In this document: in pieces, positions 3,001 through 24,549 of the stretch
Layout: each line of letters opens with the position of its first letter
Numbering within the stretch: the stretch's first letter is position 1
Translations under genes and position numbers: made by a program
The notes under the pieces: generated by a model
The model's database searches: none
Told to the model about the DNA's origin: nothing
What the model saw: the letters and a program-made list of their open reading frames with translations, nothing else
From: Flectonema sp. DT1601
Lineage: Eukaryota
Length of the DNA: 64,000 nt
Reading direction: 5' to 3'
Assembly (NCBI GenBank): GCA_964019425.1
Contig: OZ025804.1
Location: 1 to 64,000 of the forward strand

Positions 3001-6000
3001 CGGGTTTGCGGGTTTGCGGGTTTGCGGGTTTGCGGGTTTGCGGGTTTGCGGGTTTGCGGGTTTGCGGGTTTGCGGGTTTGCGGGTTTGCGGGTTTGCGGG
3101 TTTGCGGGTTTGCGGGTTTGCGGGTTTGCGGGTTTGCGGGTTTGCGGGTTTGCGGGTTTGCGGGTTTGCGGGTTTGCGGGTTTGCGGGTTTGCGGGTTTG
3201 CGGGTTTGCGGGTTTGCGGGTTTGCGGGTTTGCGGGTTTGCGGGTTTGCGGGTTTGCGGGTTTGCGGGTTTGCGGGTTTGCGGGTTTGCGGGTTTGCGGG
3301 TTTGCGGGTTTGCGGGTTTGCGGGTTTGCGGGTTTGCGGGTTTGCGGGTTTGCGGGTTTGCGGGTTTGCGGGTTTGCGGGTTTGCGGGTTTGCGGGTTTG
3401 CGGGTTTGCGGGTTTGCGGGTTTGCGGGTTTGCGGGTTTGCGGGTTTGCGGGTTTGCGGGTTTGCGGGTTTGCGGGTTTGCGGGTTTGCGGGTTTGCGGG
3501 TTTGCGGGTTTGCGGGTTTGCGGGTTTGCGGGTTTGCGGGTTTGCGGGTTTGCGGGTTTGCGGGTTTGCGGGTTTGCGGGTTTGCGGGTTTGCGGGTTTG
3601 CGGGTTTGCGGGTTTGCGGGTTTGCGGGTTTGCGGGTTTGCGGGTTTGCGGGTTTGCGGGTTTGCGGGTTTGCGGGTTTGCGGGTTTGCGGGTTTGCGGG
3701 TTTGCGGGTTTGCGGGTTTGCGGGTTTGCGGGTTTGCGGGTTTGCGGGTTTGCGGGTTTGCGGGTTTGCGGGTTTGCGGGTTTGCGGGTTTGCGGGTTTG
3801 CGGGTTTGCGGGTTTGCGGGTTTGCGGGTTTGCGGGTTTGCGGGTTTGCGGGTTTGCGGGTTTGCGGGTTTGCGGGTTTGCGGGTTTGCGGGTTTGCGGG
3901 TTTGCGGGTTTGCGGGTTTGCGGGTTTGCGGGTTTGCGGGTTTGCGGGTTTGCGGGTTTGCGGGTTTGCGGGTTTGCGGGTTTGCGGGTTTGCGGGTTTG
4001 CGGGTTTGCGGGTTTGCGGGTTTGCGGGTTTGCGGGTTTGCGGGTTTGCGGGTTTGCGGGTTTGCGGGTTTGCGGGTTTGCGGGTTTGCGGGTTTGCGGG
4101 TTTGCGGGTTTGCGGGTTTGCGGGTTTGCGGGTTTGCGGGTTTGCGGGTTTGCGGGTTTGCGGGTTTGCGGGTTTGCGGGTTTGCGGGTTTGCGGGTTTG
4201 CGGGTTTGCGGGTTTGCGGGTTTGCGGGTTTGCGGGTTTGCGGGTTTGCGGGTTTGCGGGTTTGCGGGTTTGCGGGTTTGCGGGTTTGCGGGTTTGCGGG
4301 TTTGCGGGTTTGCGGGTTTGCGGGTTTGCGGGTTTGCGGGTTTGCGGGTTTGCGGGTTTGCGGGTTTGCGGGTTTGCGGGTTTGCGGGTTTGCGGGTTTG
4401 CGGGTTTGCGGGTTTGCGGGTTTGCGGGTTTGCGGGTTTGCGGGTTTGCGGGTTTGCGGGTTTGCGGGTTTGCGGGTTTGCGGGTTTGCGGGTTTGCGGG
4501 TTTGCGGGTTTGCGGGTTTGCGGGTTTGCGGGTTTGCGGGTTTGCGGGTTTGCGGGTTTGCGGGTTTGCGGGTTTGCGGGTTTGCGGGTTTGCGGGTTTG
4601 CGGGTTTGCGGGTTTGCGGGTTTGCGGGTTTGCGGGTTTGCGGGTTTGCGGGTTTGCGGGTTTGCGGGTTTGCGGGTTTGCGGGTTTGCGGGTTTGCGGG
4701 TTTGCGGGTTTGCGGGTTTGCGGGTTTGCGGGTTTGCGGGTTTGCGGGTTTGCGGGTTTGCGGGTTTGCGGGTTTGCGGGTTTGCGGGTTTGCGGGTTTG
4801 CGGGTTTGCGGGTTTGCGGGTTTGCGGGTTTGCGGGTTTGCGGGTTTGCGGGTTTGCGGGTTTGCGGGTTTGCGGGTTTGCGGGTTTGCGGGTTTGCGGG
4901 TTTGCGGGTTTGCGGGTTTGCGGGTTTGCGGGTTTGCGGGTTTGCGGGTTTGCGGGTTTGCGGGTTTGCGGGTTTGCGGGTTTGCGGGTTTGCGGGTTTG
5001 CGGGTTTGCGGGTTTGCGGGTTTGCGGGTTTGCGGGTTTGCGGGTTTGCGGGTTTGCGGGTTTGCGGGTTTGCGGGTTTGCGGGTTTGCGGGTTTGCGGG
5101 TTTGCGGGTTTGCGGGTTTGCGGGTTTGCGGGTTTGCGGGTTTGCGGGTTTGCGGGTTTGCGGGTTTGCGGGTTTGCGGGTTTGCGGGTTTGCGGGTTTG
5201 CGGGTTTGCGGGTTTGCGGGTTTGCGGGTTTGCGGGTTTGCGGGTTTGCGGGTTTGCGGGTTTGCGGGTTTGCGGGTTTGCGGGTTTGCGGGTTTGCGGG
5301 TTTGCGGGTTTGCGGGTTTGCGGGTTTGCGGGTTTGCGGGTTTGCGGGTTTGCGGGTTTGCGGGTTTGCGGGTTTGCGGGTTTGCGGGTTTGCGGGTTTG
5401 CGGGTTTGCGGGTTTGCGGGTTTGCGGGTTTGCGGGTTTGCGGGTTTGCGGGTTTGCGGGTTTGCGGGTTTGCGGGTTTGCGGGTTTGCGGGTTTGCGGG
5501 TTTGCGGGTTTGCGGGTTTGCGGGTTTGCGGGTTTGCGGGTTTGCGGGTTTGCGGGTTTGCGGGTTTGCGGGTTTGCGGGTTTGCGGGTTTGCGGGTTTG
5601 CGGGTTTGCGGGTTTGCGGGTTTGCGGGTTTGCGGGTTTGCGGGTTTGCGGGTTTGCGGGTTTGCGGGTTTGCGGGTTTGCGGGTTTGCGGGTTTGCGGG
5701 TTTGCGGGTTTGCGGGTTTGCGGGTTTGCGGGTTTGCGGGTTTGCGGGTTTGCGGGTTTGCGGGTTTGCGGGTTTGCGGGTTTGCGGGTTTGCGGGTTTG
5801 CGGGTTTGCGGGTTTGCGGGTTTGCGGGTTTGCGGGTTTGCGGGTTTGCGGGTTTGCGGGTTTGCGGGTTTGCGGGTTTGCGGGTTTGCGGGTTTGCGGG
5901 TTTGCGGGTTTGCGGGTTTGCGGGTTTGCGGGTTTGCGGGTTTGCGGGTTTGCGGGTTTGCGGGTTTGCGGGTTTGCGGGTTTGCGGGTTTGCGGGTTTG

Positions 6001-7754
6001 CGGGTTTGCGGGTTTGCGGGTTTGCGGGTTTGCGGGTTTGCGGGTTTGCGGGTTTGCGGGTTTGCGGGTTTGCGGGTTTGCGGGTTTGCGGGTTTGCGGG
6101 TTTGCGGGTTTGCGGGTTTGCGGGTTTGCGGGTTTGCGGGTTTGCGGGTTTGCGGGTTTGCGGGTTTGCGGGTTTGCGGGTTTGCGGGTTTGCGGGTTTG
6201 CGGGTTTGCGGGTTTGCGGGTTTGCGGGTTTGCGGGTTTGCGGGTTTGCGGGTTTGCGGGTTTGCGGGTTTGCGGGTTTGCGGGTTTGCGGGTTTGCGGG
6301 TTTGCGGGTTTGCGGGTTTGCGGGTTTGCGGGTTTGCGGGTTTGCGGGTTTGCGGGTTTGCGGGTTTGCGGGTTTGCGGGTTTGCGGGTTTGCGGGTTTG
6401 CGGGTTTGCGGGTTTGCGGGTTTGCGGGTTTGCGGGTTTGCGGGTTTGCGGGTTTGCGGGTTTGCGGGTTTGCGGGTTTGCGGGTTTGCGGGTTTGCGGG
6501 TTTGCGGGTTTGCGGGTTTGCGGGTTTGCGGGTTTGCGGGTTTGCGGGTTTGCGGGTTTGCGGGTTTGCGGGTTTGCGGGTTTGCGGGTTTGCGGGTTTG
6601 CGGGTTTGCGGGTTTGCGGGTTTGCGGGTTTGCGGGTTTGCGGGTTTGCGGGTTTGCGGGTTTGCGGGTTTGCGGGTTTGCGGGTTTGCGGGTTTGCGGG
6701 TTTGCGGGTTTGCGGGTTTGCGGGTTTGCGGGTTTGCGGGTTTGCGGGTTTGCGGGTTTGCGGGTTTGCGGGTTTGCGGGTTTGCGGGTTTGCGGGTTTG
6801 CGGGTTTGCGGGTTTGCGGGTTTGCGGGTTTGCGGGTTTGCGGGTTTGCGGGTTTGCGGGTTTGCGGGTTTGCGGGTTTGCGGGTTTGCGGGTTTGCGGG
6901 TTTGCGGGTTTGCGGGTTTGCGGGTTTGCGGGTTTGCGGGTTTGCGGGTTTGCGGGTTTGCGGGTTTGCGGGTTTGCGGGTTTGCGGGTTTGCGGGTTTG
7001 CGGGTTTGCGGGTTTGCGGGTTTGCGGGTTTGCGGGTTTGCGGGTTTGCGGGTTTGCGGGTTTGCGGGTTTGCGGGTTTGCGGGTTTGCGGGTTTGCGGG
7101 TTTGCGGGTTTGCGGGTTTGCGGGTTTGCGGGTTTGCGGGTTTGCGGGTTTGCGGGTTTGCGGGTTTGCGGGTTTGCGGGTTTGCGGGTTTGCGGGTTTG
7201 CGGGTTTGCGGGTTTGCGGGTTTGCGGGTTTGCGGGTTTGCGGGTTTGCGGGTTTGCGGGTTTGCGGGTTTGCGGGTTTGTGGGTTTGCGGGTTTGCGGG
7301 TTTGCGGGTTTGCGGGTTTGCGGGTTTGCGGGTTTGCGGGTTTGCGGGTTTGCGGGTTTGCGGGTTTGCGGGTTTGCGGGTTTGCGGGTTTGCGGGTTTG
7401 CGGGTTTGCGGGTTTGCGGGTTTGCGGGTTTGCGGGTTTGCGGGTTTGCGGGTTTGCGGGTTTGCGGGTTTGCGGGTTTGCGGGTTTGCGGGTTTGCGGG
7501 TTTGCGGGTTTGCGGGTTTGCGGGTTTGCGGGTTTGCGGGTTTGCGGGTTTGCGGGTTTGCGGGTTTGCGGGTTTGCGGGTTTGCGGGTTTGCGGGTTTG
7601 CGGGTTTGCGGGTTTGCGGGTTTGCGGGTTTGCGGGTTTGCGGGTTTGCGGGTTTGCGGGTTTGCGGGTTTGCGGGTTTGCGGGTTTGCGGGTTTGCGGG
7701 TTTGCGGGTTTGCGGGTTTGCGGGTTTGCGGGTTTGCGGGTTTGCGGGTTTGCG
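1..7754 (+). repeat. Tandem array of the 8-mer TTTGCGGG (~969 units), telomere-like; extends to or beyond the window start
   Basis: Direct reading. Only two irregularities seen: gcggcgg near 1575-1580 and a C>T at 7281. The array ends ...TTTGCG|AGTTATC. Confidence 0.99.
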
Positions 7755-7777
7755 AGTTATCAGCGGCACCGACGGTG

Positions 7778-8770
7778 ATGTCCGAGACGGAGTTGGCAAG
7801 GCAGTGTGTGGCCTTGGTGAATCAGTTAGTGGTGTTTGAGGCGCGAACGAAGACGGACACAGATGCGCCGTACCTGTTGTACGCAGGGATGTTAGTGGAG
7901 TTCGAAGACTCATATGCGATAAATTTTTCGTCGGCCTTTAATTATTTAGAAGGCATAAGCACATAGAGTGGGGAAGAGAAAAAATCAGCATTTCTACCTC
8001 CAATGATGGCTGTACAACGTTTGGTAAGTGCTTCAGTCTTTCAAACTGAGCGAGCGAAGGATTTGTTGGGCCGGAAGGACGCGCAGCTGCGTGCACAAAG
8101 GGAGAAGGTGAGTGAGCTGGAAAACAATGTGAAGGGATTGCAAGAAATGGTACAGCAGCTGCTAAACAAGCCGGATGAAGAAATGTTAAATCATCAATCG
8201 TCTTCTCAACTGAGGTATCAGCATCAAGTTTTAAACTCAACTGTGTCAAGTCAAAACCAACCAATGTACCATCATCAGAATCAGAACCAGGAATTTGACT
8301 ACACTCAAATAGGAAGGGAAGCGACAGATGCTTACAGCATCACGGAGAAGTGTTTCCGGGACGCAGTCACACAGAGAGGCCCGCTCGAAGTTGCCAGGGA
8401 TTTTGAGATAGTAATGGTGGCCGGATATGAGCAGAGATACGGGGGGAATGATCTCCGTAAGTGTTTTGTAGCTTTTAGACGATGGTTAGCCTCAGCATGC
8501 TCAGTACAGGACTGGAACACAAACCCGGAGCTAGTGGCACTTGGAGATCATCTGCTGAAGGAACTAAAGTTGAAGCACACAGCAGTCAGAAGAGGAGTTG
8601 GACAGTATACCTTACAACAGCAGATGATGGCACAATCAGAGGATCCTTATGAGAAGGCAGCGATAGCTATCGAGAGGAGGAACGCAACGAGCAGAAAAGG
8701 CAAAGGAAGGAAAGGCGGTTTTAAGGGAGGATACAAGGGTCAGGGAAATGGACAGACCGGGAGGCAGTGA
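7778..8770 (+). pseudogene. Gag-like ORF1 of the YR element (coiled coil, basic Gly/Lys/Arg-rich C-terminus), with one in-frame TAG at 7964-7966
   Basis: The MSETELARQ... frame continues in frame through the TAG into the 8003-8770 ORF. It lies immediately upstream of YR. Confidence 0.65.
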
Positions 8771-8797
8771 CTGGCACCTTCTAGTCAAAGAGTAAGT

Positions 8798-10156
8798 ATG
8801 CCAGTAGCGACAATGTACGAAGCTTTCAAGAGACAACAACAGTCAGTCGGTTCAACAAGCGTCGCAATTTCAACTCATCGATTCACCCCGTACAACGCAC
8901 AATCAATAGAACGCACGACTATACTCGACAACTCAGGAATGACAATTTTAAATTCAAACACGATGCAAGTTGCAACACGAACAACCAGCCTGGCGATATC
9001 AAGTCCAACTCACGTTTCTATTCCGAATCACATTCGAAGGCCAACTCCAAACATGTCACCTCATCGAAAAAGTATCGACGATCCAGATTCGGACCCAAGA
9101 CCTCTGCCGTGCAGCGCAGCTGTCCAGGCGTCACATTCGGGCAACGAGAATTTTCTACTGGATGGCGAAGCCGAGCTTCAGACCGCAGAAACATCAACCC
9201 TAGGAACGCTGGAAGGAGATGTAATAAAAAGAGCAGTCTTAAATATTTTGCAACAGAGTGTCAAGAAAAAGAAGCAATCGGAGGACGAAGTGGACCCGGA
9301 CGAGGCCGAGGAGAGGATTCAAGGCCTGGTCGAGAAGACTTGGGCGAAGCCAACAACGGTTGCAAGAAGAGCACTGTGGGACAGGTTGAACAGGTGGATC
9401 CAATTGAACGACCTTCCCTTGAACGCAAACTCGGCAGTTCTGTTTGTGGCGGCAACAGGAGCGGCCCCATCTGCCCTCCTTACGTATTCAAAGCACCTGT
9501 CAGCGATGATGGGGAAGCTGGGAATGGAGACAAGCCCGTTATCAATAATGGGTACTTCGTTGAGAGCCGCTGGTGCCGAGATTCCAAGCAGGCAGGCAGA
9601 ACCGATGGCGAAGGAAGATTTGGTGAAGTGGGCCAAGACACAAAAAGTGAATGTCCGGTTGGCACTCATGATCTGCTGGAAGACCGCGTCCCGGTGGGGA
9701 GAGGTGGCGACCCTGTCAAGCGAGCAGGTGAATGTGATAAGCAGAAACGAGGTGATTGTCGACTGGGCAACGAACCCCAAGGGCAGAAAGCGGAATCCGT
9801 TCTACCCTGGAAGGTGGGCAGTTATCGTGGGAGACCTGGTGGAGGAGATCGCGTCCGACAACATCCAGTTAGGAAAGTACGAAAGACTGACGGAGTGGGA
9901 CACAGCAAAGTTGGTGCAGGAATGGAGAAGGGAGAAGTACATGAAGAAGTACTCGGCGCACTCCATCAAGCGAGGGGCGATAAGTCGCCTGTTCGAACAG
10001 TTGGCGAGCGGAGAGGATATCAGGGAGGAATTAATAAGCCGCCTCGCGAAGCACAGCACAACCGCCGCCCTCTCGAACACAACGACCCGGTACGGAGGAA
10101 ACCCAGTGGCATTGGCCCGGGCATTGCGAACATCGGAGGTGACGATTCACCTCTGA
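8798..10156 (+). CDS. Tyrosine recombinase of the retroelement
   Basis: Catalytic R (ASRWGEV), HxxR (HSIKRGA), H (LAKH) and Y (TTRY) in the correct order. Confidence 0.88.
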   Translation: MPVATMYEAFKRQQQSVGSTSVAISTHRFTPYNAQSIERTTILDNSGMTILNSNTMQVATRTTSLAISSPTHVSIPNHIRRPTPNMSPHRKSIDDPDSDPRPLPCSAAVQASHSGNENFLLDGEAELQTAETSTLGTLEGDVIKRAVLNILQQSVKKKKQSEDEVDPDEAEERIQGLVEKTWAKPTTVARRALWDRLNRWIQLNDLPLNANSAVLFVAATGAAPSALLTYSKHLSAMMGKLGMETSPLSIMGTSLRAAGAEIPSRQAEPMAKEDLVKWAKTQKVNVRLALMICWKTASRWGEVATLSSEQVNVISRNEVIVDWATNPKGRKRNPFYPGRWAVIVGDLVEEIASDNIQLGKYERLTEWDTAKLVQEWRREKYMKKYSAHSIKRGAISRLFEQLASGEDIREELISRLAKHSTTAALSNTTTRYGGNPVALARALRTSEVTIHL

Positions 10157-10170
10157 CCTGTATTAGGAAA

Positions 10171-11760
10171 ATGAGGGCGCAGTTTACTCACAGAGGAAAG
10201 AGTACTCGTCTGCCTTCAACAGTTGAGGAGAGGGGCGCGCTGTTGCATGTCTCGAAGATACCGGAGATGAATCTCAGACATGTCAGGTCACGAATGCTAC
10301 CTTCGATAAGGAAGCGTTTTGAACATGTATGGTCACTCACATTTAATTATATCAACAAACAGGAAAAAGAAAGTAGAAAGAAGAAATCAAGGTTTTCAGC
10401 AGACCATGCTAAGAAGCTGGCTGAGTGTCATATTGCCGTTCCTTTTAATTTATCTGAGTCAAGGGCGCATAATGTGCCATTTACTGTTTTCGAAGAAAGA
10501 GAGTCTGGAAATAGACAGAGGTTTATTTTGTGGACAAAAGAAGAGAACGAAAGAATCACAGGGGAGGGGTATGTTCCTTTTGTCCCGTTGAAACACATTT
10601 CGGAATACCTGGGTGCAGTTGACTCAGAGGTTGCATCTCTGAGAGACTTCAAAACTGGTTTTTACCAGGTTGCAATCCCAGAAGAGGCAAGAGGCCTGTT
10701 TGCGTTTCAGGATTCCGAGGGTGCTTCGTATGCCTTGACCAGACTGCCCATGGGGCATGTTTGTGCACCGGAAATAATGAACACCGTGGCTGCTGTGGTA
10801 GCAGGTGACCCGCTTTTTGTCAAGGACAGGTATGCGGAGAAGGATGTTGGGATCCATTGGTGGATCGACAATATCAGGTATTTCGGTGGAAGGGAGAAGG
10901 TGCACAGTGCAACAGAAAGATTGGATAAACTAGCATCTGAATGCAACATTTCTTGGAAACCACAGGATACAGTTAACTGTGGTGGATCTTATGATTTTCT
11001 TGGTGTTTCTTTTTTACATAATGCAAAGGAAGTGGGCTTAGGTGCCAAGATTAGAAGAGGTATTTTCAAGTGTGATTTAAATCGTATGACTGCCTCGAGT
11101 ATCGAGTCAGGGGGAGACTTCTACATGCAAGTGCAATTTCAGGTGTTCCACCTGGGCGTTACTGGTTTGCTTTAAAGTTTCTGAGAAGAGTAACAAACAA
11201 GCTCAACAAGGGCCCTTTACATGTTGAACAGGAAGTGGTTATTCCCCCCTCTGTGAAAAGAGAGTTTTTCAATTGGTGTAAGTCGGTCCAGAAGAAAAGG
11301 ATCATTAAGTTGAATGGGACAAAGAAAAAGAAAGCTGAGGTATTTGTTGATGCCTCGCTCCAAGGGTGGGGCGGGGTTATTGTTTGGGAATCTGGAGAAT
11401 TGGAAATCCTGGGAGGGGCATGGCCATATGGTGAGAGTCGCCACATTAACATTCTTGAAGCTGATGCTCTGGCCAGGACTCTGGATGGAATCAGCCATGC
11501 TGACCACCTGGGACATCTGGGTAGACAATACCTCGGTATGTGGAGCATTCAGGAAGAGAATGTGTGTGTAAGAACGCATGATTTGAACTTTTTTGTTATA
11601 AAAGCAGTGGAGAGAATTTTGTTTTTTAAGTGTTCTTTTTCTTTAAAATGGGTGAGTACGAAGTACAACCCAGCAGATATTCCATCTAGGGAAGCAATAT
11701 CTTCGGCTACCAGGCAGAAGGTGGAACTTGCGCTGGGGGAATTCTTTAACTCGCGGCGGG
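10171..11760 (+). pseudogene. Reverse transcriptase + RNase H, frameshifted near 11110 and twice near 11490-11570
   Basis: RT motifs DFKTGFYQ, RLPMG, WIDN, FLG. RNase H motifs FVDAS..GWG, HINILEA, VDNTS (in another frame), NPADIPSR. Confidence 0.88.
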
Positions 11761-12200
11761 GTGGTGGAGCCGGCAACCCAACAAACAGAACTGGGACCGG
11801 CAGCGGCGTCCAGCCCATCCATGGCGGACCCACCACTGGTGGACCATTGTTTAGTTTATTGATATCACCGAGTGATTTGTTTCTCATGTTTCCTTTCTTC
11901 CAAACAGGTGCCCAAAGGATGCAAGATAATTACTTCACTTTTCTTTCAGTTATTTGCCACTTTGTTACATCTCACAAAAAGCAATCTTTGATTCATTTTT
12001 TTTTGGGTAAAGGGGTCTTTCCTACACAAATAGTTTCAGAACTAACCATTCATTACAAAATCCAAAATGGCTGTAAACTGCCAAGTTCGATCCTGGGCGT
12101 TTTCTTTTTTTCTTGATTTTTTTTTCAGGCTGGACTTTGTACAGGGGAGGTTGGCTTTTATTAGGGGCCCCCCCTGCAGGTTTGCGAAAAAAAAAAGAAA

Positions 12201-12280
12201 TTGCGATATCCCAGGGGTAGTGGTATAACTCTCGCCCCGGGGCTGGGTGATCGCTGGTTCGATCCCCTGCCACTGCAATA
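12201..12280 (+). other. Degenerate tRNA-derived (SINE-head-like) sequence
   Basis: TAGTGGTATAA D-arm-like segment and GGTTCGATCCC B-box/T-loop. Stems pair poorly. Confidence 0.3.
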
Positions 12281-12482
12281 ACCCATCGCGCCCGTACACG
12301 TAATTAGTTCAAATCCCGCACCCGAAGGGCGCAGAAAAATTAGTAAGAAGAAAACAGCAAGGAAAAGGGTACAATTTTGTACCCTGGACGGGTACCTAGC
12401 CAGACACCGGGAATAAAAACAGACATGACTTGGTTGTAAAAATAAGGTTTGTTCAGAAAGATTTAAAAAAAAAAAATTGTGT

Positions 12483-12541
12483 GCGAGCAACGCGAGCCTG
12501 GAAGGGGTATCTTTAGTGCGGGTTTGCGGGTTTGCGGGTTT
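12483..12541 (+). repeat. Hairpin + GTATCT(C/T)TAG + octamer-seed motif, copy A
   Basis: gcgagcaacgcgagc...gtatctttag|tgcgggtttgcgggtttgcgggttt. Confidence 0.85.
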
Positions 12542-12915
12542 CACTCGGATTTAATAAAATTTTCTTTATAGTAACTCAATCAAAGCCAGCCAAACCTGAA
12601 AGTAGAAAGAACAATATTCACCAGAGAATAACAGTGGAATAAAATAAGGTTTTTCTATATTATTACGAGGGCTTTTCCATATGTTTACAGGTATTGGGGA
12701 TTTTTTGGGTTCCAGGAAATTGGGCTACTGTGGGCTTTTTTATATTTTTCAGGAAATAATAACGGAGGTGACTTGGTTGTTAAATAAAGGTTGTTGAGAA
12801 AGCTAAAAATTGGTAACTTGCAATATGCCCCATACCCGCAAAACTGCAACACTATAACCTTGCCATCGCAAAGTAAAAACAAGTTTAAATAGAAAAACAA
12901 AAAATAAACAAGTTC

Positions 12916-12968
12916 GCACGAGCGAAGCGAGGCTGGGCGGGTATCTCTAGTGCGGGTTTGCGGGTTTG
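12916..12968 (+). repeat. Hairpin + GTATCTCTAG + octamer-seed motif, copy B
   Basis: cgagcgaagcgagg...gtatctctag|tgcgggtttgcgggtttg. Shares upstream tgacttggttgt..aaataa.ggtt with copy A. Confidence 0.85.
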
Positions 12969-13219
12969 AAGGATTTTTTTTCACAGGGAGGTTCCCCTGC
13001 TATTTATTTTTTTTTTTTGTTTGTTATTATTATTATTATTTTTATTTTTTTTTAAGAAAAACACTTTATTCCTTGCCTCATTACCATCACTTCACTTCCT
13101 TCTTTATCCTGTACTAGAAAAACGAGGATAAACAGTTTTTAGCATGTACAAGACTTAAAGAATCCCTTTACCATACAATATCTTCGATGGTAAGCTTTGC
13201 TGTTTAGGTTTTTAATCTA

Positions 13220-14422
13220 CTAATTAGGAAGGTAGCTACTGAAGTTTTCGTTCTCACTAATATTCCTGTTGTGTCGTGCATTCAAGTATCCGTGGAGTTC
13301 TTGAGGTTCAGGGTGCTGGATTTGAACAGTATAGTGATTGGTGCTCTTGTAAGTTGCATTGCGAAGGCTTCCTGAGAAATACGCTGCATTGGCATTGGCA
13401 TACAAAACGTGTAAGGTAGTCTGTTCTCTTGTGTTGTGATCACTATCATCCATAAAGAATGTAACACCACAGACATTCCCTCCCCCGCGAGCATCATACA
13501 TCTGATGGTGAATTGGATCCAAAATCAATCGATTGCTTGTATCTGCGCCTTCTTGGTGGGTGCAATTATCCTTAGACCATTCCTTAATATGCGCCCATTC
13601 TGCTCTGGCTACACCTTCTCCGAACATTTTCGGATTTATTGGTGTTTCTTTTTCGATTTCTTCGATGGTAAGCCTCGATGTACCTTCGGCAGTTGTATCA
13701 GAAGGCTCCGGTTCTATTACATCATTCCAGCTTGCACGGGAGAGAGGCTGCTCATAGCGGCTTGCAAAAACTTGAGAGCCAAGCTTTTTAGATGAACTTC
13801 GAACCTCAAAGTTTAATGGAAGGTCAGCTCTGTGCGATCTTTCTAGCATGTTCCTTGTATCGACTAACATCCTGCTTGCTTTCCCCTCAGTCCTAAAATG
13901 CAACATCACTCGCATAGATGTGCTCTTCGTAATTGCCTCGTTCTGTTCTGTTTGGTAACTAATGTCCAATGGTTCTGTAGCCAAATGACTTTCGGCAAGC
14001 CTAAGCATCGATTTACGCAAACCAATCATGGATGCCCCGTTTGGAATCAAGAAGTCAACTTTCCAGCCAACACGATCCCAGCCAGGCGATGCTGACATTT
14101 TCACATCGTTATTCGGGAGCTCTCCTTCTGCAAATCGCTTTCGACTTCCAGACGAGCTGAGATGAAGTCCTTCCAATTGTGCCGACACTGTACTCCCCTG
14201 TGTCAAAGTGGCCAGTCGTGCCCTGGCGTCTGCGATGTTCTCCATTAGTTGATCAATACGCAGCGCCTGTCTTGCATCTGAGATGCCTTGGTATGTTCCA
14301 TCCTTCAATTGGACATCAATGAGTTCCACCTGCCACTTCTCAATCTCCTCCTCGATTCTCAACTTCCCCTTCTCCGCAATTCCCTCGAACCCCCTAACAA
14401 GCTTCAATTCATCGTCTGACAT
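13220..14422 (-). CDS. Coiled-coil + HNH-type nuclease protein (Crinkler/RHS-effector-like), copy 1
   Basis: 400-aa ORF with AHI...NRLILDPIHHQMYD, matching the HNH_2-type AHI..N.L.L...H..FD pattern. Confidence 0.7.
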   Translation of the reverse strand: MSDDELKLVRGFEGIAEKGKLRIEEEIEKWQVELIDVQLKDGTYQGISDARQALRIDQLMENIADARARLATLTQGSTVSAQLEGLHLSSSGSRKRFAEGELPNNDVKMSASPGWDRVGWKVDFLIPNGASMIGLRKSMLRLAESHLATEPLDISYQTEQNEAITKSTSMRVMLHFRTEGKASRMLVDTRNMLERSHRADLPLNFEVRSSSKKLGSQVFASRYEQPLSRASWNDVIEPEPSDTTAEGTSRLTIEEIEKETPINPKMFGEGVARAEWAHIKEWSKDNCTHQEGADTSNRLILDPIHHQMYDARGGGNVCGVTFFMDDSDHNTREQTTLHVLYANANAAYFSGSLRNATYKSTNHYTVQIQHPEPQELHGYLNARHNRNISENENFSSYLPN

Positions 14423-15359
14423 GTTGTTCGGCTGGAAGAGGAAAAAATAGTGGATCGCGGATTAAGCATTTCTCATTAAACAACAAGGCATCATTCATAT
14501 TCCTTCATCCCATCTCTCTGGAATGCACTCGGGATTATCAGCACTAACAGCACAACGCAATTGTGTTCTCAAGGTCCGATTCAGCAGGAGAAATTGCCAT
14601 TGGTATTCTCAAGAATGCCTGCCACTCTTAACAAGTGCAACTCTTAAAGAAACCCTTCACCATACACATCGCTTTACACATGACATCTGCTTTCGTTGGA
14701 GCACCATTCGTTATTTTCACATTCGTACCTGTTATGACATTGTTAGAATTTATACTGGGTGTCGGCCTTTATATAAGAACATCTAATCTCCGATGTTTGT
14801 AATTGCTGTTGCTAAAGAAATAAGACTAAGAAAGGAAGTACTTAAGAAGGGGTGAGGGTGACCAAGTAATGGCGGTCGGCGACGGCCCGGCTACCATTTA
14901 AAAGAAATTTATTTAAAGGATGCAAAATTGCCTGGATAAAGGCAGATAGGCATAACGAATCAATCGCACAGCACTATATAAAATGATAAGACGGTAAACA
15001 TGATAAGATAGTAAACTGCGGCCGATCCCGGGAGATTCCCATATTGGTGTTAGGGTTTGCAGGTTTGCGGGTTTTTTTTGATTAGTGGGGAAGTGGAACC
15101 CCTTTTTTTATTTTTTTTTATTTTCTTGAAGATTACACAGGGAGTTTCCCCCATGTTACTTACTTTATTTTTATTTTTTTTTAAGATAACGTGTAAACAC
15201 TTTATTCCTTGCCTCATTGCCATCACTTCACTTCTTTCTTTATCCTGTACTCGAAAAGAGAAAAACGAGGATAAACTGTTTTTAGCATGTACAAGACTTA
15301 AAGAATCCCTTTACCATACAATATCTTCGATGGTAAGCTTTGCTGTTTAGGTTTTTAAT

Positions 15360-16568
15360 CTACAAATTAGGAAGGTAGCTACTGAAGTTTTCGTTCTCAC
15401 TAATATTCCTGTTGTGTCGTGCATTCAAGTATCCGTGGAGTTCTTGAGGTTCAGGGTGCTGGATTTGAACAGTATAGTGATTGGTGCTCTTGTAAGTTGC
15501 ATTGCGAAGGCTTCCTGAGAAATACGCTGCATTGGCATTGGCATACAAAACGTGTAAGGTAGTCTGTTCTCTTGTGTTGTGATCACTATCATCCATAAAG
15601 AATGTAACACCACAGACATTCCCTCCCCCGCGAGCATCATACATCTGATGGTGAATTGGATCCAAAATCAATCGATTGCTTGGATCTGCGCCTTCTTGGT
15701 GGGTGCAATTATCCTTAGACCATTCCTTAATATGCGCCCATTCTGCTCTGGCTACACCTTCTCCGAACATTTTCGGATTTATTGGTGTTTCTTTTTCGAT
15801 TTCTTCGATGGTAAGCCTCGATGTACCTTCGGCAGTTGTATCAGAAGGCTCCGGTTCTATTACATCATTCCAGCTTGCACGGGAGAGAGGCTGCTCATAG
15901 CGGCTTGCAAAAACTTGAGAGCCAAGCTTTTTAGATGAACTTCGAACCTCAAAGTTTAATGGAAGGTCAGCTCTGTACGATCTTTCTAGCATGTTCCTTG
16001 TATCAACTAACATCCTGCTTGCTTCAGCCCGATCTGTGAAATGCAACATCACTCGCATAGATGTGCTCTTCGTAATTGCCTCGTTCTGTTTTGTTTGGTA
16101 ACTAATGTCCAATGGTTCTGTAGCCAAATGACTTTCGGCAAGCCTAAACATCGATTTCCGCAAACCAATCATGGATGCCCCGTTTGGAATCAAGAAGTCA
16201 ATTTTCCAGCCATCACGATCCCGGCCAGGCGATGCTGACATTTTCACATCGTTATTCGGGAGCTCTCCTTCTGCAAATCGCTTTCGACTTCCAGGCGAGC
16301 TGAGATGAAGTCCTTCCAATTGTGCCGACACTGTACTCCCCTGTGTCAAAGTGACCAGTCGTGCCCTGGCGTCTGCGATGTTCTCCTTGCACTGGTTCAT
16401 GCGATATTCTTGCTTTTCATCAGATATCCCAGCATGGTCGCCCTCCTTGAATGCGATCTTCTCCAGTTCCCCCTGCCACTCCTTGATCTCCTGCTTCAAC
16501 ACCGACTTCTCCTTCTCCGCAACAGCCTGGACAAGCTCCATAACAAGCTTCAATTCATCGCTTGACAT
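15360..16568 (-). CDS. Coiled-coil + HNH-type nuclease protein, copy 2 (tandem duplicate)
   Basis: 402-aa ORF, near-identical to copy 1 after about residue 70. Flanks 14423-14786 and 16569-16934 are also duplicated. Confidence 0.7.
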   Translation of the reverse strand: MSSDELKLVMELVQAVAEKEKSVLKQEIKEWQGELEKIAFKEGDHAGISDEKQEYRMNQCKENIADARARLVTLTQGSTVSAQLEGLHLSSPGSRKRFAEGELPNNDVKMSASPGRDRDGWKIDFLIPNGASMIGLRKSMFRLAESHLATEPLDISYQTKQNEAITKSTSMRVMLHFTDRAEASRMLVDTRNMLERSYRADLPLNFEVRSSSKKLGSQVFASRYEQPLSRASWNDVIEPEPSDTTAEGTSRLTIEEIEKETPINPKMFGEGVARAEWAHIKEWSKDNCTHQEGADPSNRLILDPIHHQMYDARGGGNVCGVTFFMDDSDHNTREQTTLHVLYANANAAYFSGSLRNATYKSTNHYTVQIQHPEPQELHGYLNARHNRNISENENFSSYLPNL

Positions 16569-16949
16569 GTTGTTCGGCTGGAAGAGGAAAAAATAGTGGA
16601 TCGCGGATTAAGCATTTCTCATTAAACAACAAGGCATCATTCATATTCCTTCATTCCATCTCTCTCTGTAATGCACTCGGGATTATCAGCACTAACAGCA
16701 CAACGCAATTGTGTTCTCAAGGTCCGATTCAGAAGGAGAAATTGCCATTGGTATTCTCAAGAATGCCTGCCACTCTTAACAAGTGCAACTCTTAAAGAAA
16801 CCCTTCACCATACACATCGCTTTACACATTACATCTGCTTTCGTTGGAGCACCATTCGTTATTTTCACATTCGTACCTGTTATGACATTGTTAGAATTTA
16901 TGCTGGGTGTCGGCCTTTATATAAGAACATCTAACTTAATTTAACAAAA

Positions 16950-17260
16950 TTATCTTCCAAGCTTACGATAAAGCCAAACGGTGTATCTTTCAAGCGGCTG
17001 AACATCTCGTTGAACTGCGACTTCTGCAGATCCTATCCAACACTTCTGAACAATTGTGTACGCTCCTTGTGAGTTTACATTAAATAATATTAGTACAGAT
17101 ATGTTGTCGCGAATAGTTTTCGTTATCCTGAAATAGCTCTGTGCGATGTAGAACACTGGTATTAAAATGCCTCCCCCTGGAGAAGAGATTCACGAACTTC
17201 GACTGCGACTTCTCCAACATGATGTCATCCGGGAAAGCCCCTTTATTTCCGCTTTATTTA
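16950..17260 (-). pseudogene. Fragment of an A32/FtsK-HerA-type packaging ATPase (Polinton/virophage/PLV-like)
   Basis: Minus strand reads DDIMLEKSQSKFVNLFSRGRHFNTSV, then after a frameshift FYIAQSYFRITKTIRDNISVLILF. This gives Walker B, the RGRH arginine motif and the QSY..IR.N motif. Walker A was not found. Confidence 0.7.
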
Positions 17261-17921
17261 TTAAATCCCAAGGCACCCACCACGCTGCGTCATCCTAAGC
17301 CGGAAAGGAAAATTACTCGAAAGTCGGGGCAGTTCGAACGTCAGCATTCACATCAGCAAGCAGGTTTGGTAGTCCTGAGTACTTAAAGAACCCAACCATT
17401 ACGTGCATCAGTCATAGTCACACTTAGTATAGCGTTAGTACAGAGGACACGGATCTGCTATGCAGGGAAGTGACTTGAACTTGTTCAACAAATTGATGTG
17501 CGTAAATATAAGCGCCGCGAATTGACGGGTCTGAAGTTATGCTTTCCACCACCCACGCGAGTGTTATTTTGACGTTTCATTTAACTGAACCTGTAGAAAG
17601 AATACAATAATCTGAACAACATCAACAAACGTTTTGAGGCACATCAATTATTAGGGAAGTGGAACCCTTTTTTTGTATTTTTTTTTTATTTTTTTTCACA
17701 GGGAGGTCCCCCTGCTATTTATTTTTTTTTTGTTTGTTATTATTATTATTATTTTTATTTTTGGTGAAATAAGTAACCGACTGGAGACACTGGAGGGACT
17801 GTTAGCTGGGAAGGGGTCACATGGCACAGCTTATTGTTTTTTTTTTTACTTTTTTGTTTTTTTTTTTTTTTTTTTCGCCGAAGCGAAGTTTAATTCAGAA
17901 AAACAAAAAATAAAGAACTTT

Positions 17922-17968
17922 GCGTGAGCGAAGCCAGCCTAGACAGTATCAAGTGCGGGTTTGCGGGT
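17922..17968 (+). repeat. Hairpin + GTATC..AG + octamer-seed motif, copy C
   Basis: gcgtgagcgaagccagcc...gtatcaag|tgcgggtttgcgggt. Confidence 0.8.
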
Positions 17969-18309
17969 AATTGTCCTTCCATACTTTGCACCTGCCTGAT
18001 TCAAGGGTAAGTGAAGTCCAATTTCGTAAGACTGGAGTGAGGAGGGTGGGCTTCGAAAACGTGAGTGTGAGAGAAAGAGTGATCGAGCTGTATAAAGAAT
18101 TTCTTTAAAAATAGAAAGCTAAAGAAAATATAAAAATGTCTCTGTTGTTTTGTTCATTTTTCCAACTTTGGAATCATACACTTTCCTGCCTGATACCTTT
18201 GATTCTTTCTCTGCAGTGTCTACTCTAAGTTTGGTGGAAAATTACCTCCGGATTTTTTAATTTAAAACCTGGCATATTAATACATTCAGAGAAATAAAAA
18301 GAAAAATAA

Positions 18310-18356
18310 CGTGAGCGAAGCGAGCCGACAGGTATCTCTAGTGCAGGTTTGCAGGT
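18310..18356 (+). repeat. Hairpin + GTATCTCTAG + octamer-seed motif, copy D
   Basis: cgtgagcgaagcgagcc...gtatctctag|tgcaggtttgcaggt. Confidence 0.8.
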
Positions 18357-18856
18357 ATAACAAAGTATTCATAAAGGTTACTCTCTCACCACAGTGGTGC
18401 TGAATTCTTTCCAAAACAAAGACGTTTACATGACCGTCCTACAGTCAAACTTATGTCTGCAATGTGTGTGACAATTCTACCTGGGATGGGAATAAGTATT
18501 AATAAGGTTATCGTTCATTTTTTAGTTTGTTCATTATCACTTTCTTCTATTCAGCAGAGTGGAAATGTGGCTTGCCCCTTCTGTTTCACTGCCTCGCCTG
18601 CGATGTTTCAGGCCTTTGCCTTCAAAAAGTACGTTTCTATTTTTTTCTTTTTCTTCTTCTTTATGTGGCAGTAGTAAATGAACTCTGAGTTCAGAAGGTG
18701 GAAGTTGTTTTGAATGTGGTAAGGTAGAAATGTGGAATGCTGTTGGGATCTAGTCGGGGGGATAACTTGATACTAATATTAAATGGAAAGCAACTTGAAA
18801 CTGGCAAAAACGAGAATAGGGTTCGGCCAAACCTGGTTGCAATATAAGAAATCAAC

Positions 18857-18929
18857 AGCTGTCGAATATGGGGATTCGGGGGCCACTACTACAGGTTGAG
18901 CGCCCCATGCCCTGTAGCCCGTTACAGCT
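18857..18929 (-). ncRNA. Putative structured RNA motif (pseudoknot), copy 1
   Basis: AGCUGU/ACAGCU closing stem, CUACAGG/CCUGUAG stem, loop GGGGC pairing with downstream GCCCC, CGAAU/AUUCG hairpin. Confidence 0.6.
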
Positions 18930-19172
18930 TAAAATAGTATTCCTTCACACTTCAAAGGTAAATAAATATTAAAGGAAAATTAAAAAAAGGGAAAACTATT
19001 TTTGCAAAAATAATAAAGGAAATAAAGAATAAAAATAAAATATAAATGATTTCTGGTTCGTAGCACTACCAGTGGATCTCGCAATACTTTGCTGCGAGTG
19101 ATAATTAACTACGTTTGCTTTGCTCTCGAAAGACTGTGCAGTGAGTTTTGGTGTGATCTTAAGCCTTGTAAA

Positions 19173-19571
19173 TTAAATTCTTCCAGCCTGAGATTCCGTG
19201 GCACCACACGCAGTGCAAACGAATAATCCCAAACAACTTAAACAAACATCATAATCACAGTCTTTTTGTCTACATTGGAATGCAAGATTATAAGTGGTTT
19301 GCGGCATGTTGCGGTCACAGATGTTACAGTACATATTACTACTTACCTTCGCAAATTTCAGGTTGTGCCTTGCTGGACATAAGTGAAGCTCTTCTCTAAA
19401 AATTAGAATGTCTGAATCTTCTAATAAATTAATAAGTACATCCACAACTAACTCTTCATCAATTGTATTAGAACTTGAGGAAGTAGTTGAGGAAGATGAA
19501 TCGGACGAGGTCACAGATACGGTTTCTGAGGTTAAATCTGAGCAACTTGACATTGTTGTAGCTGCTTTCAT
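19173..19571 (-). CDS. Small Ser-rich protein with ZZ/C1-like zinc finger (possibly a fragment)
   Basis: CPARH...CNIC...C...CDYDVCLSC pattern. Confidence 0.5.
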   Translation of the reverse strand: MKAATTMSSCSDLTSETVSVTSSDSSSSTTSSSSNTIDEELVVDVLINLLEDSDILIFREELHLCPARHNLKFAKVSSNMYCNICDRNMPQTTYNLAFQCRQKDCDYDVCLSCLGLFVCTACGATESQAGRI

Positions 19572-20326
19572 TTTGATCTCATCGAAGTACCAGTTAATTA
19601 TGATGTTTACATATAGTGCTCAGAAGTAGTATGGTACGCCATTACACCGAGCGTACCCCAAAAATATGTATCTTGTGTACTGGCTGGGGAAATCCATCGT
19701 AAACTTTTTTCCTGCACGCTATTAATAGTGATTAGTATTAAAGAACAACCCATTTCATCTAAGAAAGCTTTAAAATACAACAATGACCAAAACATATGAG
19801 AGCCATCCCTTGCAGACAAAGTCATAAGTTTTGCAGGCAGAACAGACAAACCATACAGGTTGGCACTAGCGTGGTTTTATTATAAAAAGCAATTCAGCCA
19901 CATAGGATGAAAGCAGTTAGACGGATTATCATAAAAACCAGTCCAATCACACAGGCTGGCCAGGCTAGAAAAACACCAGAAACGTTCTGAGCTATAAGGG
20001 GTAGTGGGTGGAATAATTAAGTGGTTTCTTTTAGTCGCAGTATTAAACCTGAGAATACACTCTGTCTGTGCTTCCAGACTCTTTGTTTTTTTTGTTCTCT
20101 TCACTTCTATGTTTGTCTTTCTTTTATACATTCTTTTAACTTAAGTCTGACAATTAAAAAAAAAAGTTGCATCGCAATTTTTTTATTTATTATTTATTGT
20201 GTGTTGCTATCTTAGGATGAAAATAAGGGTTATCGTGCATTAGCTTTTTCCGTCCCGCTCAGTGTTCCAAAAACGAAAATGTGAGAGAATAACTTCCGTA
20301 TGTGCGGGTTTGCGGGTGACTGTTGT

Positions 20327-22252
20327 CTACTTCGGCCTCTTGATGAGCTGGGATTCTTCGTGGGATGCTTTCCGCTTCATTGCAGCTGGCGGCTTCAGTT
20401 CACTCCTCGGCCAGAAAGCAGCGAACGGTCCGAAGTAATCATTGAAATTCGAACGATGCACAAGTCCAACGAGTTTCCCTTTTAATAAAGATTTCCAGCT
20501 ACTGGGAAACTCAGCCTGGGTGGAGAATATCAGAACATCGTTATCCCCCACTGCTTTATGTATCTCCGACTTAGCAAAATCCAGAAATGTTTCGTCCGAC
20601 TTAGGAAAAACGGTCTTCAAATACAACTTCTGCTGATAGACTTCAGTGAAGATTTCACCCTGCGAGCTGGTCAGAGGGATAAAGCTGTCGCCTGCAGATG
20701 CAGCTTTTGCATTGATCACAATGGACTTTCCATCTTTGATGTCAACTTCCTTGCTCTCGAGTTTGATATTCCAACTACCGGCCTGGGACTCCTTTTTGAT
20801 TTCCTCAGCCTTCGATTCGCTCTTCGTTGAGATTTTGAATTTACTTTGTAGAACACGCGTGACTAGAACATTATTGAACGTCGGTGGGTTGGAGTCGTCA
20901 GCCCAAAGCATCCCTTTGTGGAAGTCCTTGAGGCTCATAGTCTCACCACCATTCTTATGTACCCTCGACAGAAACATTCGGAACCATGCCCCGAACTGCT
21001 CCCACTGTACTTCACTAACTGGTGTCGCCCCTTGCCAACCTTGCAGAATGTGCCCGTTTTTCTGCTTTTTATTCATGAGTAACCAGATCGGTGCAATTAT
21101 CAGTTTCTGGTTCTCAATTCTGAGAAGCCCATGCTGAGTGAAGGTACTCACATGAAGCTGCTTGTCCTCCCCAACTGGAATGTTAGCATCGTCTCGTCCT
21201 GGGATAAGCGTATCTCTCAGGAAGCAGGCCTTTAATAAGGCGGTCACATGATCAGACTCGAATCCCCCGAATCCCGATTTATTCGAACTCAGCTGTTCAG
21301 CAACTTCACTGTAGAGTTGGATATCAGTCATAGATTGCTCCGTATTGTTCGCAATGATATTCATCAAAACCTCCACGGCCCTGCCATGTCCCCCCATGAC
21401 GCTGAGCTGTTCCTGGGTGATTCGGATTTGTTTCCCGTTTACCAATGGGACAGTAATTAGCTTTGGCAGAGGAATCCATGCTTTCTCGGTGCTGGATTGC
21501 TTTAGAGCTTCGATAGCCGTAATACTTGCAGTGCAGGAACACAGCGGGAAGATGAAATGCCTCCGACGTTGGCACAAAATGTAATCGCCGCTCACAACGT
21601 TGCAAAGAAATATGCGGAGAGGGTCGTCTTCAGGTAGTTTCATGGGTTTCCCAGCCAAGTTATGCACGCCATCAATCATCAGTAACACAGCTGATGGCTT
21701 GTCGTTGTCTTTTGCCAGGTAATCCAGTACATCACCAAGGGTCAGCCCTTGATTTCCATTAGCGATCTCGAATTGACTATAACTGATAGTCTGATCAGAA
21801 AGGTAGTAAAGGATCCGCAGCGGGACTTGCTCACGAGTATTCAATTTCTTGTCCACCGGTGTGCTATTCTCAAAGGTTACTTGGAACACCAACACTTGGC
21901 TGAATGTCTTGGAATCTTCCGCCAGTTTCTTCAGCATCTTCGGCGCTTCCTGAAGCGCCCGACTCTTGCCCTCGCCAATGCCACAAACAAGAAGGGGTAC
22001 AGGACTGCTATTCTTATCTAAATTCTCCTTGCTGTTAAACTTATTTAGGTTGTTACCGAATGTCTTACAAAGCTCTTTTTTGAATCCCCCATTCTCTTGA
22101 TAGTCCCATTTCGATCCAGTTGAAGAAACAAGAACATGAGGGTTCGATAATTTCTTCCGCAAGTCTTCTTCACTAACTTTGTTCAAAATATCCGCAACGA
22201 TTTCACGGGGTTTTTTCTGTGTGTGGATTGGTTTTTTTATTGAACGAAGGGC
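20327..22252 (-). CDS. Crinkler/RHS-type P-loop NTPase + restriction-endonuclease-fold protein; upstream exon(s) apparently lost
   Basis: Walker A GIGEGKS, VTFENST, Walker B LLMIDG, GGHGRA helix, C-terminal N..A.AGD...Q.K REase pattern. The ORF-track N-terminus (22253-22468) runs through an intron-like tract and a dispersed repeat. Confidence 0.75.
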   Translation of the reverse strand, partial: ALRSIKKPIHTQKKPREIVADILNKVSEEDLRKKLSNPHVLVSSTGSKWDYQENGGFKKELCKTFGNNLNKFNSKENLDKNSSPVPLLVCGIGEGKSRALQEAPKMLKKLAEDSKTFSQVLVFQVTFENSTPVDKKLNTREQVPLRILYYLSDQTISYSQFEIANGNQGLTLGDVLDYLAKDNDKPSAVLLMIDGVHNLAGKPMKLPEDDPLRIFLCNVVSGDYILCQRRRHFIFPLCSCTASITAIEALKQSSTEKAWIPLPKLITVPLVNGKQIRITQEQLSVMGGHGRAVEVLMNIIANNTEQSMTDIQLYSEVAEQLSSNKSGFGGFESDHVTALLKACFLRDTLIPGRDDANIPVGEDKQLHVSTFTQHGLLRIENQKLIIAPIWLLMNKKQKNGHILQGWQGATPVSEVQWEQFGAWFRMFLSRVHKNGGETMSLKDFHKGMLWADDSNPPTFNNVLVTRVLQSKFKISTKSESKAEEIKKESQAGSWNIKLESKEVDIKDGKSIVINAKAASAGDSFIPLTSSQGEIFTEVYQQKLYLKTVFPKSDETFLDFAKSEIHKAVGDNDVLIFSTQAEFPSSWKSLLKGKLVGLVHRSNFNDYFGPFAAFWPRSELKPPAAMKRKASHEESQLIKRPK

Positions 22253-24500: not shown

Positions 24501-24549
24501 TTAAATGAGTTGCTTTTCAGGTTGTTGTGGGTTACAGGGCCCCCCGTGA

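What the first reader, a model, noticed from the sequence alone, without database searches (positions are those of the whole stretch)
12483..20317. Conserved hairpin-GTATCTCTAG motif always followed by ~2-3 units of the same octamer as the 7.7-kb array
Seen: four diverged copies (12483, 12916, 17922, 18310) of GAGCGAAGCGAG-like hairpin + 4-9 nt + GTATC(TCT)AG. Each is followed in the same register by TGCGGGTTTGCGGG (TGCAGG variant in D). Seeds without the hairpin occur at 15053 and 20303. All are G-rich on +, like the array, and none was seen after 20.4 kb. Established: a GC hairpin about 10 nt before CTAG|T is the Helitron 3'-end signature, and telomerase templates hold about 1.5 repeat units. 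Inference, three alternatives: (a) a Helitron-like family that targets or carries this octamer; (b) a breakage/healing signal where repeats are added de novo; (c) a minus-strand RNA with CCCGCAAACCCGCA that acts as a reiterative template for the TERT-related PLE RT and generates the array.
Basis: partly seen in the sequence, partly recalled or inferred. Interest (0 to 1): 0.8.

Follow-up and report, generated by a model that had tools for sequence, protein, structure and literature searches.

The report
Transposon end relics beside octamer array
In a marine protist (likely a diplonemid), four worn copies of a roughly 90-base sequence each end in two to three units of the 8-base repeat that forms a 7.7-kb array nearby; they are likely leftover right-hand ends of a jumping element that lands in that repeat, a layout known from Paramecium and fungal chromosome ends.

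Summary
The pattern is real. Four diverged ~90-nt modules (A-D, 12.4-18.4 kb) find each other without the octamer (E 5e-6 to 4e-10), and 4 of 4 end in 1.9-3.1 octamer units in one register. Corrections: CTAG is intact in 2 of 4, the hairpin is weak, and one inverted octamer pair was missed. The host is likely a diplonemid. The array directly abuts a defective TATE/VIPER-like tyrosine-recombinase retroelement and cuts its first ORF. Similarity among A-D stops sharply at the tail, so the module is a right-hand (3') end. Best reading (0.4): relic Helitron-type right ends that inserted into the octamer, as Paramecium Helitrons do in telomeres, later spread by local duplication. Close rival (0.3): 3' tails of a repeat-targeting retroposon or SINE, like MoTeR relics or CR1 tails. 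No transposase, shared left end or A^T site was found, so Helitron membership is not shown. Healing-signal and RNA-template models are unlikely; the array's polarity is opposite to that of a left telomere. No whole genome was available, so the genome-wide test remains open.

The parts
1..7758 (+). (GGTTTGCG)n array, 969.5 units, G-rich on +; left end not visible; one 2-nt insertion and two variant units
7754..8770 (+). ORF1 (gag-like position) of a TATE/VIPER-like element; cut by the array 8 codons before a conserved Met (5 homologues have 40-52 residues there); one in-frame stop
8771..10156 (+). tyrosine recombinase ORF (weak Phage_integrase match; 44-50% identical to D. papillatum proteins among the best hits; a 99% identical protein on another 410-kb contig)
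10189..12116 (+). RT/RNase H region overlapping the recombinase ORF upstream, frameshifted in this copy
12175..12186 (+). 1.5-unit octamer seed (TGCAGG variant) at the left of the unit that ends in A
12218..12266 (+). A-box-like and B-box-like motifs, the only B-box match outside the array; no tRNA call at standard thresholds
12443..12541 (+). module A: A-rich lead, head with AAC loop, end TTAG, tail 3.12 units
12879..12968 (+). module B: head with GAA loop, end CTAG, tail 2.25 units
12973..13049 (+). repeat X (short GC stem and T-run) right of B; relatives at 15081-15183 and 17647-17762
13036..14786 (-). first copy of a duplicated unit with a 413-aa ORF (weak HNH_2 match)
15053..15074 (+). 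seed E, head-less, 2107 nt from B's tail and followed by the same repeat X; probably B's tail copied with the 2.1-kb duplication
15165..16934 (-). second copy of the duplicated unit (94% identical)
17884..17968 (+). module C: end CAAG, tail 1.88 units
18271..18356 (+). module D: end CTAG, tail 1.88 units, both TGCAGG
20282..20317 (+). seed F, tail 1.88 units; the sequence upstream resembles a decayed head by eye only (profile E 0.71)

Best explanation
Four diverged ~90-nt modules each end in 1.9-3.1 units of the octamer that forms the neighbouring array, and they are likely relic right-hand ends of non-autonomous Helitron-type elements that inserted into that repeat at one register. Inferred mechanism: a Rep/helicase encoded elsewhere in the genome would join the element's CTAG end to the T of TGCGGG on the G-rich strand, so every right end points away from the array and is followed by a short remnant of the target. 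Later breakage, further insertions and segmental duplication would have removed the bodies and copied some junctions (E is probably B's tail). Shown: the module, its sharp right boundary, one register and one orientation. Inferred: mobility, the enzyme, and that the tail is target rather than element.
For: Similarity among A-D is above background for 40 nt left of the head (0.58-0.80 against a 95th percentile of 0.53) and at background for 30 nt right of the tail (0.38-0.45 against a mean of 0.44) in 6 of 6 pairs, which makes it a right end. The end is CTAG in 2 of 4 and one base away in the other two, and is followed by T in 4 of 4; the head lies 16-20 nt upstream. Canonical Helitrons end in a hairpin and CTRR (PMC5148889; PMC11417382). 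The same 12-mer caps longer palindromes in unrelated metagenome contigs: stems of 7 bp or more in 4 of 58 distinct contexts against 0.6 for permuted arms, p=0.004. Paramecium Helitrons show the same geometry: long array at the left end, right ends inward, always followed by short repeats of the same polarity (PMC13085455). The tail is better conserved than the head (2 of 60 against 18 of 128 minority cells, P about 0.007), as expected if it came from a homogenised target. D. papillatum has Helitron-like ORFs (PMC10161547). The alternation of GAA and AAC loops matches my recall of Helitron hairpins; this comes from no call.
Against: No Rep/helicase motif in any ORF of 70 aa or more and no such Pfam match among 57 ORFs scanned. 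No shared left end: TC follows the repeat in 1 of 7 short seeds (A only) and not at the array. The site would be T^T, not A^T. The bodies between modules are unrelated. The Watson-Crick hairpin is not supported. Tail lengths are narrow (1.88-3.12 units, and C, D and F stop at the same base), whereas Paramecium remnants vary widely; this favours a built-in tail. Copies are not all independent of duplication. No second genomic copy of the module was seen.
Confidence: 0.4

Rival explanations
1. The modules are 3' ends of a non-LTR retroposon or SINE family, heavily 5'-truncated. The 2-3 octamer units are a built-in slippage tail (CR1/L2 type) or a target remnant (MoTeR-relic type), and target-primed reverse transcription places them at octamer repeats.
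For: Sharp right boundary and narrow tail length; both units changed alike in D. CR1 3' ends have a hairpin and an octamer microsatellite and are heavily truncated (PMC4316615); UnaL2 tails act in template slippage (PMC3747384). MoTeR relics are very short 5'-truncated ends with vestigial repeats, without target duplications and tied to segmental duplications (PMC8381367). The unit 12187-12541 has A/B-box-like motifs upstream of A and an octamer seed on each side. B and C can fold a 5-6 bp RNA stem. Non-LTR ORFs far outnumber Helitron ORFs in D. papillatum. An unchecked note reports a diplonemid retrotransposon likely targeting an 8-base repeat (e1-10630253).
Against: No plus-strand ORF of 300 aa or more right of 12.2 kb, and no translated match of 11.9-20.4 kb to the window's RT pieces. 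The left boundary is near -40 in A, B and C rather than spread. Pol III boxes precede only 1 of 4 modules, and one B box is about chance level. CR1 is described as Metazoa-specific. The CTAG-T end must then be coincidence.
Confidence: 0.3
2. The module is a non-mobile, conserved junction element beside octamer repeats, like the 100-bp LCTAS of Leishmania, with GCRGGT half-sites as protein-binding sites, copied by subtelomeric duplication.
For: Defined length of about 90 nt with boundaries on both sides. The tail is more conserved than the head. B and D have a third half-site before the CTAG that matches their own tail variant. There are many local duplications. LCTAS is described in PMC8621916. 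The modules sit where a minus-strand gene cluster (11 of 11 ORFs of 300 aa or more) meets the plus-strand element.
Against: Flanks are unrelated for most pairs, which duplication alone does not predict. The visible array junction has no module. The half-site match fails in C.
Confidence: 0.15
3. The module is a Helitron2-type left end or a subterminal inverted repeat, with the two units built in.
For: Fusarium Helitron2 5' hairpins have GAA loops (PMC5148889). An inverted pair lies at 12834-12848. TT lies 4-6 nt before the 12-mer in A, B and C. An unchecked note describes hairpin head, motif and exactly two repeats in dinoflagellate Helitron left ends (e1-7695446).
Against: The sequence right of the tail is at background identity in 6 of 6 pairs while the left side is shared. 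Only one inverted copy exists for four modules. No intact repeats lie left of the heads.
Confidence: 0.07
4. One reading: a breakage or healing signal at which repeats are added de novo.
For: One register in 4 of 4. The array caps a cut ORF, which looks like a healed break.
Against: The tails run towards the interior and the sequence continues. The array's visible junction has no module, and its polarity is opposite to telomerase healing of a left end (established knowledge; PMC13085455).
Confidence: 0.05
5. One reading: a minus-strand RNA templates the array through a PLE reverse transcriptase.
For: Two units would suffice as a template, and PLE-like RT pieces exist in the window (by recalled motifs; no family match).
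Against: Minus-strand folds are at shuffle level (z -1.0 to +0.6). The PLE-like pieces are broken and 2.8-17 kb from any seed. The array has no TGCAGG unit.
Confidence: 0.03

Closest known systems
Telomere-inserting Helitrons of Paramecium aurelia (PMC13085455; sections 14 and 18 part 1, and passages, read)
   Same: Long array on the left, right ends pointing inward, each followed by a short stretch of the same repeat in the same polarity; stem-loop near the end.
   Different: There the flanking strand is C-rich, remnants vary widely, and ORFs and left ends are known. Here the strand is G-rich, tails are 1.9-3.1 units, and neither transposase nor left end was found.
MoTeR relics of Pyricularia (PMC8381367; passages)
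   Same: Very short 5'-truncated ends with vestigial repeats, no target duplication, associated duplications.
   Different: MoTeRs target TTAGGG telomeres and full-length partners are known; no RT partner ends in this module in the window.
CR1/L2-type LINE and SINE 3' tails (PMC4316615, PMC3747384; passages)
   Same: Hairpin followed by a few short repeat units (an octamer in CR1), with heavy 5' truncation.
   Different: CR1 is described as animal-specific, and no matching long array is described in the passages read; no LINE body is present here.
TATE/VIPER of kinetoplastids (PMC6681497, PMC12278014; passages), for the element at 7754-12116
   Same: ORF1, recombinase and overlapping RT/RH order; lies in contact with a G-rich simple repeat.
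   Different: This copy is cut inside ORF1 by the array, is frameshifted and shows no split direct repeats; TATE versus VIPER was not resolved.
LCTAS of Leishmania (PMC8621916; passages)
   Same: About 100-nt conserved block associated with terminal-type repeats in a euglenozoan.
   Different: No sequence comparison was possible; the repeat here is not TTAGGG and the visible array junction lacks the module.

Membership tests
Helitron (HLE1) | 3' CTRR end | tested here: inconclusive
   CTAG in B and D; TTAG in A; CAAG in C
Helitron (HLE1) | 16-20-nt palindrome about 10-12 nt from the 3' end | tested here: not met
   Only a GC-loop-GC tip and a 2-bp outer stem; folds at shuffle level. Sheared G-A pairs are not modelled by the tool.
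Helitron (HLE1) | 5' TC end shared among copies | tested here: not met
   TC follows the repeat in 1 of 7 short seeds; no shared sequence right of the tails
Helitron (HLE1) | insertion between A and T | tested here: not met
   T follows in 4 of 4, but the octamer has no AT; an in-register site is T^T
Helitron (HLE1 or HLE2) | Rep/helicase partner with the same end | not testable with these tools
   None in the window; no genome held
Helitron2/Helentron (HLE2) | 12-15-bp subterminal inverted repeats and hairpins at the ends | tested here: inconclusive
   One inverted pair (12834-12848) for four modules
non-LTR retroposon or SINE 3' end | RT ORF or pol III head upstream on the same strand | tested here: inconclusive
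   No plus-strand ORF; A/B-box-like motifs before A only; no tRNA call
non-LTR retroposon or SINE 3' end | target-site duplication | tested here: inconclusive
   No unique duplication of 7 nt or more in 4 of 4; A is bracketed by octamer seeds, which cannot be told apart from target
non-LTR retroposon or SINE 3' end | variable 5' truncation | tested here: inconclusive
   Left extent 29-54 nt in 4 of 6 pairs, longer or unreliable in A-B and A-D
telomerase-made telomere (the array) | G-rich strand runs towards the chromosome end | tested here: inconclusive
   G-rich on + at the window's left, the wrong polarity if this is a left end; what lies left of base 1 is unknown
TATE/VIPER (element at 7754-12116) | ORF1, recombinase, overlapping RT/RH | tested here: met
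TATE/VIPER (element at 7754-12116) | split direct repeats A1...B1 A2 B2 | tested here: not met
   No repeat pair in 7751-13100 other than modules A and B; the 5' part is lost

The most novel reading that the evidence does not exclude
The octamer array is this diplonemid's chromosome end, a non-TTAGGG repeat whose C-rich strand runs towards the end (opposite to telomerase-made telomeres). It caps a broken retroelement and is fed or targeted by a dedicated family of rolling-circle or retro elements whose ends carry the repeat.
Probability: 0.1. Interest if true: 0.85.

Novelty: new variant of a known kind. Interest (0 to 1): 0.45.

Why it matters
If the best reading holds, repeat-homing Helitron-type elements, published for Paramecium in the papers I read, also occur in euglenozoans and use the G-rich strand of an octamer that I did not find described. 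I found no statement of a diplonemid telomere repeat. The module gives a precise probe for finding the autonomous partner and for asking whether this array is a telomere, a subtelomeric satellite or a centromere. As it stands, the evidence is four decayed copies in one patch.

Tried and rejected
No whole genome was held, so the genome-wide tabulation could not be done. Sequencing runs: one low-share holder, X1, and no RNA holder listed. Its contigs covered pieces of the retroelement and of the spacers, some with unrelated flanks, but no listed piece spanned a head or tail (6 pieces were not shown); a hole proves nothing. The metagenome scan for the head gave 78 loci, 0 of 78 followed by the octamer, which look like prokaryotic or chance matches. 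Viral scans gave 0 for the head, 0 for three units and 0 recombinase relatives. The prokaryote scan gave 2 chance-like hits without a head. A recalled Helitron-end pattern against a control in viral contigs gave 24 and 43 hits, which is uninformative. Rfam and ARAGORN found nothing at the modules; relaxed ARAGORN gave noise. The Atlas was unavailable. Earlier-findings look-ups by place and by sequence were blank. Literature: octamer strings with 'telomer', 217 papers, 20 listed, none on such a repeat by title; Helitron hairpin strings, nothing relevant. Additional file 1 of PMC10161547 (repeat section) was too large to read and may bear on diplonemid telomeres and Helitrons. Three look-ups (two for one MoTeR paper, one for the LCTAS paper) were not held; one search fetched an unrelated paper. 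Rejected: A and B as the B1/B2 repeats of the TATE-like copy (about 80% alike while the element's proteins are 99-100% identical to other copies, and C and D lie far away); a G-quadruplex role (four G-tracts in A and B only); a TA-flanked MITE (TA after 2 of 6 tails); CpG decay as the sole cause of TGCAGG (CpG o/e 0.78 against GpC 0.85).
Full report
Setting. The window opens with 969.5 units of GGTTTGCG, G-rich on +. The host is likely a diplonemid: the gamma-tubulin complex protein at 43100-45031 has its only close homologue in Flectonema neradi (69%), and the recombinase ORF matches many Diplonema papillatum proteins. The contig is 435 kb; D. japonicum has 118 chromosomes in 62.3 Mb (PMC13598402, passages), so this could be a whole chromosome. 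No genome was held. Right of 12.2 kb, 11 of 11 ORFs of 300 aa or more lie on the minus strand, and gene content shifts from duplicated HNH-like and PLE-like pieces to housekeeping genes.

Observation. The four modules are real. A profile of the ~75 nt before the tail finds the left-out copy at E 4.9e-6, 2.8e-8, 4e-10 and 3.4e-6, and no fifth copy at a significant E-value. 4 of 4 are followed by TGCRGGTTTGCRGGT in one register. That 15-mer occurs at 7 loci outside the array against 0.011 expected, all within 12.5-20.3 kb. Tails are 3.12, 2.25, 1.88 and 1.88 units; seeds E and F have 2.12 and 1.88. CTAG is intact in B and D only. An inverted pair at 12834-12848 and a 1.5-unit seed at 12175 were missed. 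The hairpin is weak by folding, although the same 12-mer caps long palindromes in 4 of 58 unrelated metagenome contexts (p=0.004).

Anatomy. Pairwise identity is 0.58-0.80 in the 40 nt left of the head, 0.75-1.0 in the head, 0.58-0.75 in the spacer, 0.87-1.0 in the tail and 0.38-0.45 (background) to the right. The unit is therefore about 90 nt and ends with the tail. The tail varies less than the head (2 of 60 against 18 of 128 minority cells, P about 0.007). The stretches between modules are not alike, and pieces of them recur in run X1 with other flanks, so the region is a mosaic of short repeats. E lies 2107 nt from B's tail, about the offset of the duplicated HNH-like unit, and is followed by the same repeat X, so it is probably a copy of B's tail and not an independent empty site.

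The array junction. The array touches an element with ORF1, a tyrosine recombinase and an overlapping RT/RNase H region, the layout of TATE and VIPER (PMC12278014, passages). TATE sits in telomeric hexamers in Leishmania braziliensis (PMC6681497, passages). Here the array cuts ORF1 eight codons before a conserved Met, where 5 homologues have 40-52 residues; the copy is frameshifted and has no split direct repeats. The junction is thus not an intact element end and carries no module. It looks like a capped break, but a telomerase-healed left end would be C-rich on + (established knowledge; PMC13085455).

Mechanism. Shared left side, sharp right boundary, one orientation and one register are what right ends of a repeat-homing element give. 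Two published systems have this geometry: Paramecium Helitrons, whose right ends are always followed by short telomeric stretches (PMC13085455, sections 14 and 18 part 1), and MoTeR relics, very short truncated ends with vestigial repeats (PMC8381367, passages). I put the Helitron-type reading first (0.4) because of the CTAG-T end with a hairpin tip 16-20 nt upstream, and because D. papillatum has Helitron-like ORFs (PMC10161547, passages). Against it: no Rep/helicase, no shared TC start, no A^T site, and narrow tail lengths, whereas the Paramecium authors used wide variation to call their repeats target. These points keep a retroposon tail close (0.3). CR1 ends have a hairpin and an octamer (PMC4316615, passages), such tails slip during reverse transcription (PMC3747384, passages), D has both units changed alike, and A has pol III-box-like motifs 230 nt upstream. 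A non-mobile LCTAS-like block (PMC8621916, passages) gets 0.15, and a Helitron2 left end (PMC5148889 and PMC4067079, passages) 0.07.

Membership. It works like a Helitron right end but is not filed as a Helitron: three defining features were not met and the partner could not be tested. Helitron definitions were taken from passages of PMC11417382, PMC13404089 and PMC5148889. PMC1874636 (passages) gave nothing on diplonemid telomeres.

Earlier notes. Three unchecked notes are leads only: telomere-associated Helitrons in a dinoflagellate (e1-7695446, e1-7695247) and a diplonemid retrotransposon likely targeting an 8-base repeat (e1-10630253), whose repeat I could not see.

Novelty. The kind is known. 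The host group, the octamer and the strand were not found described in searches, of which I saw only the listed rows; Additional file 1 of PMC10161547 could not be read. No relative of module plus tail was found in metagenome, viral or prokaryote collections. Interest 0.45: a real pattern with known analogues, resting on four decayed and partly duplicated copies, with one open oddity, the identity and polarity of the array.

Noticed in passing
window 7754-7800: The array cuts ORF1 of the recombinase retroelement; the array and the seed at 12175 both stop after TGCG and are followed by A.
   Followed up: partly
window 12200-12285: tRNA-like stretch with A-box-like and B-box-like motifs; no tRNA or Rfam call; possible SINE head or pseudogene.
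   Followed up: partly
window 18860-18922, 22408-22464, 22654-22717, 24720-24784, 40943-40992: A ~60-nt repeat in five copies (80-87% alike) near NTPase-like, PLE-like and LRR ORFs; folds not above shuffles for the two copies tested; no Rfam match for the four copies inside 7.7-30 kb.
   Followed up: partly
window 27081-27148: A 68-nt near-perfect palindrome (91%) just outside a P-loop ORF.
   Followed up: no
window 13223-16607, 20330-22546, 26009-27120: HNH-like and NTPase-like ORFs that recall Crinkler/RHS-type proteins (label recalled; only a weak HNH_2 match).
   Followed up: no
window 22606-25738, 28827-29694, 35328-38017: Broken PLE-like RT pieces, two duplications (89% and 99%), and a GIY-YIG-like motif at 37718-38017 (labels recalled; no family match).
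   Followed up: partly
window 54346-54910: A 14-bp array of 40 copies touching the 3' end of an alpha-mannosidase ORF.
   Followed up: no
window 50196-51456: Topoisomerase IB C-terminal piece with a basic low-complexity ORF upstream; possibly split or intron-containing.
   Followed up: no
window 18247 (run X1, record 5): A diverged copy of the C-D spacer leaves the window's sequence and the contig ends in CTAG; single low-depth contig.
   Followed up: no
L083 301-326: One viral-collection locus resembles a hairpin-CTAG Helitron end.
   Followed up: no
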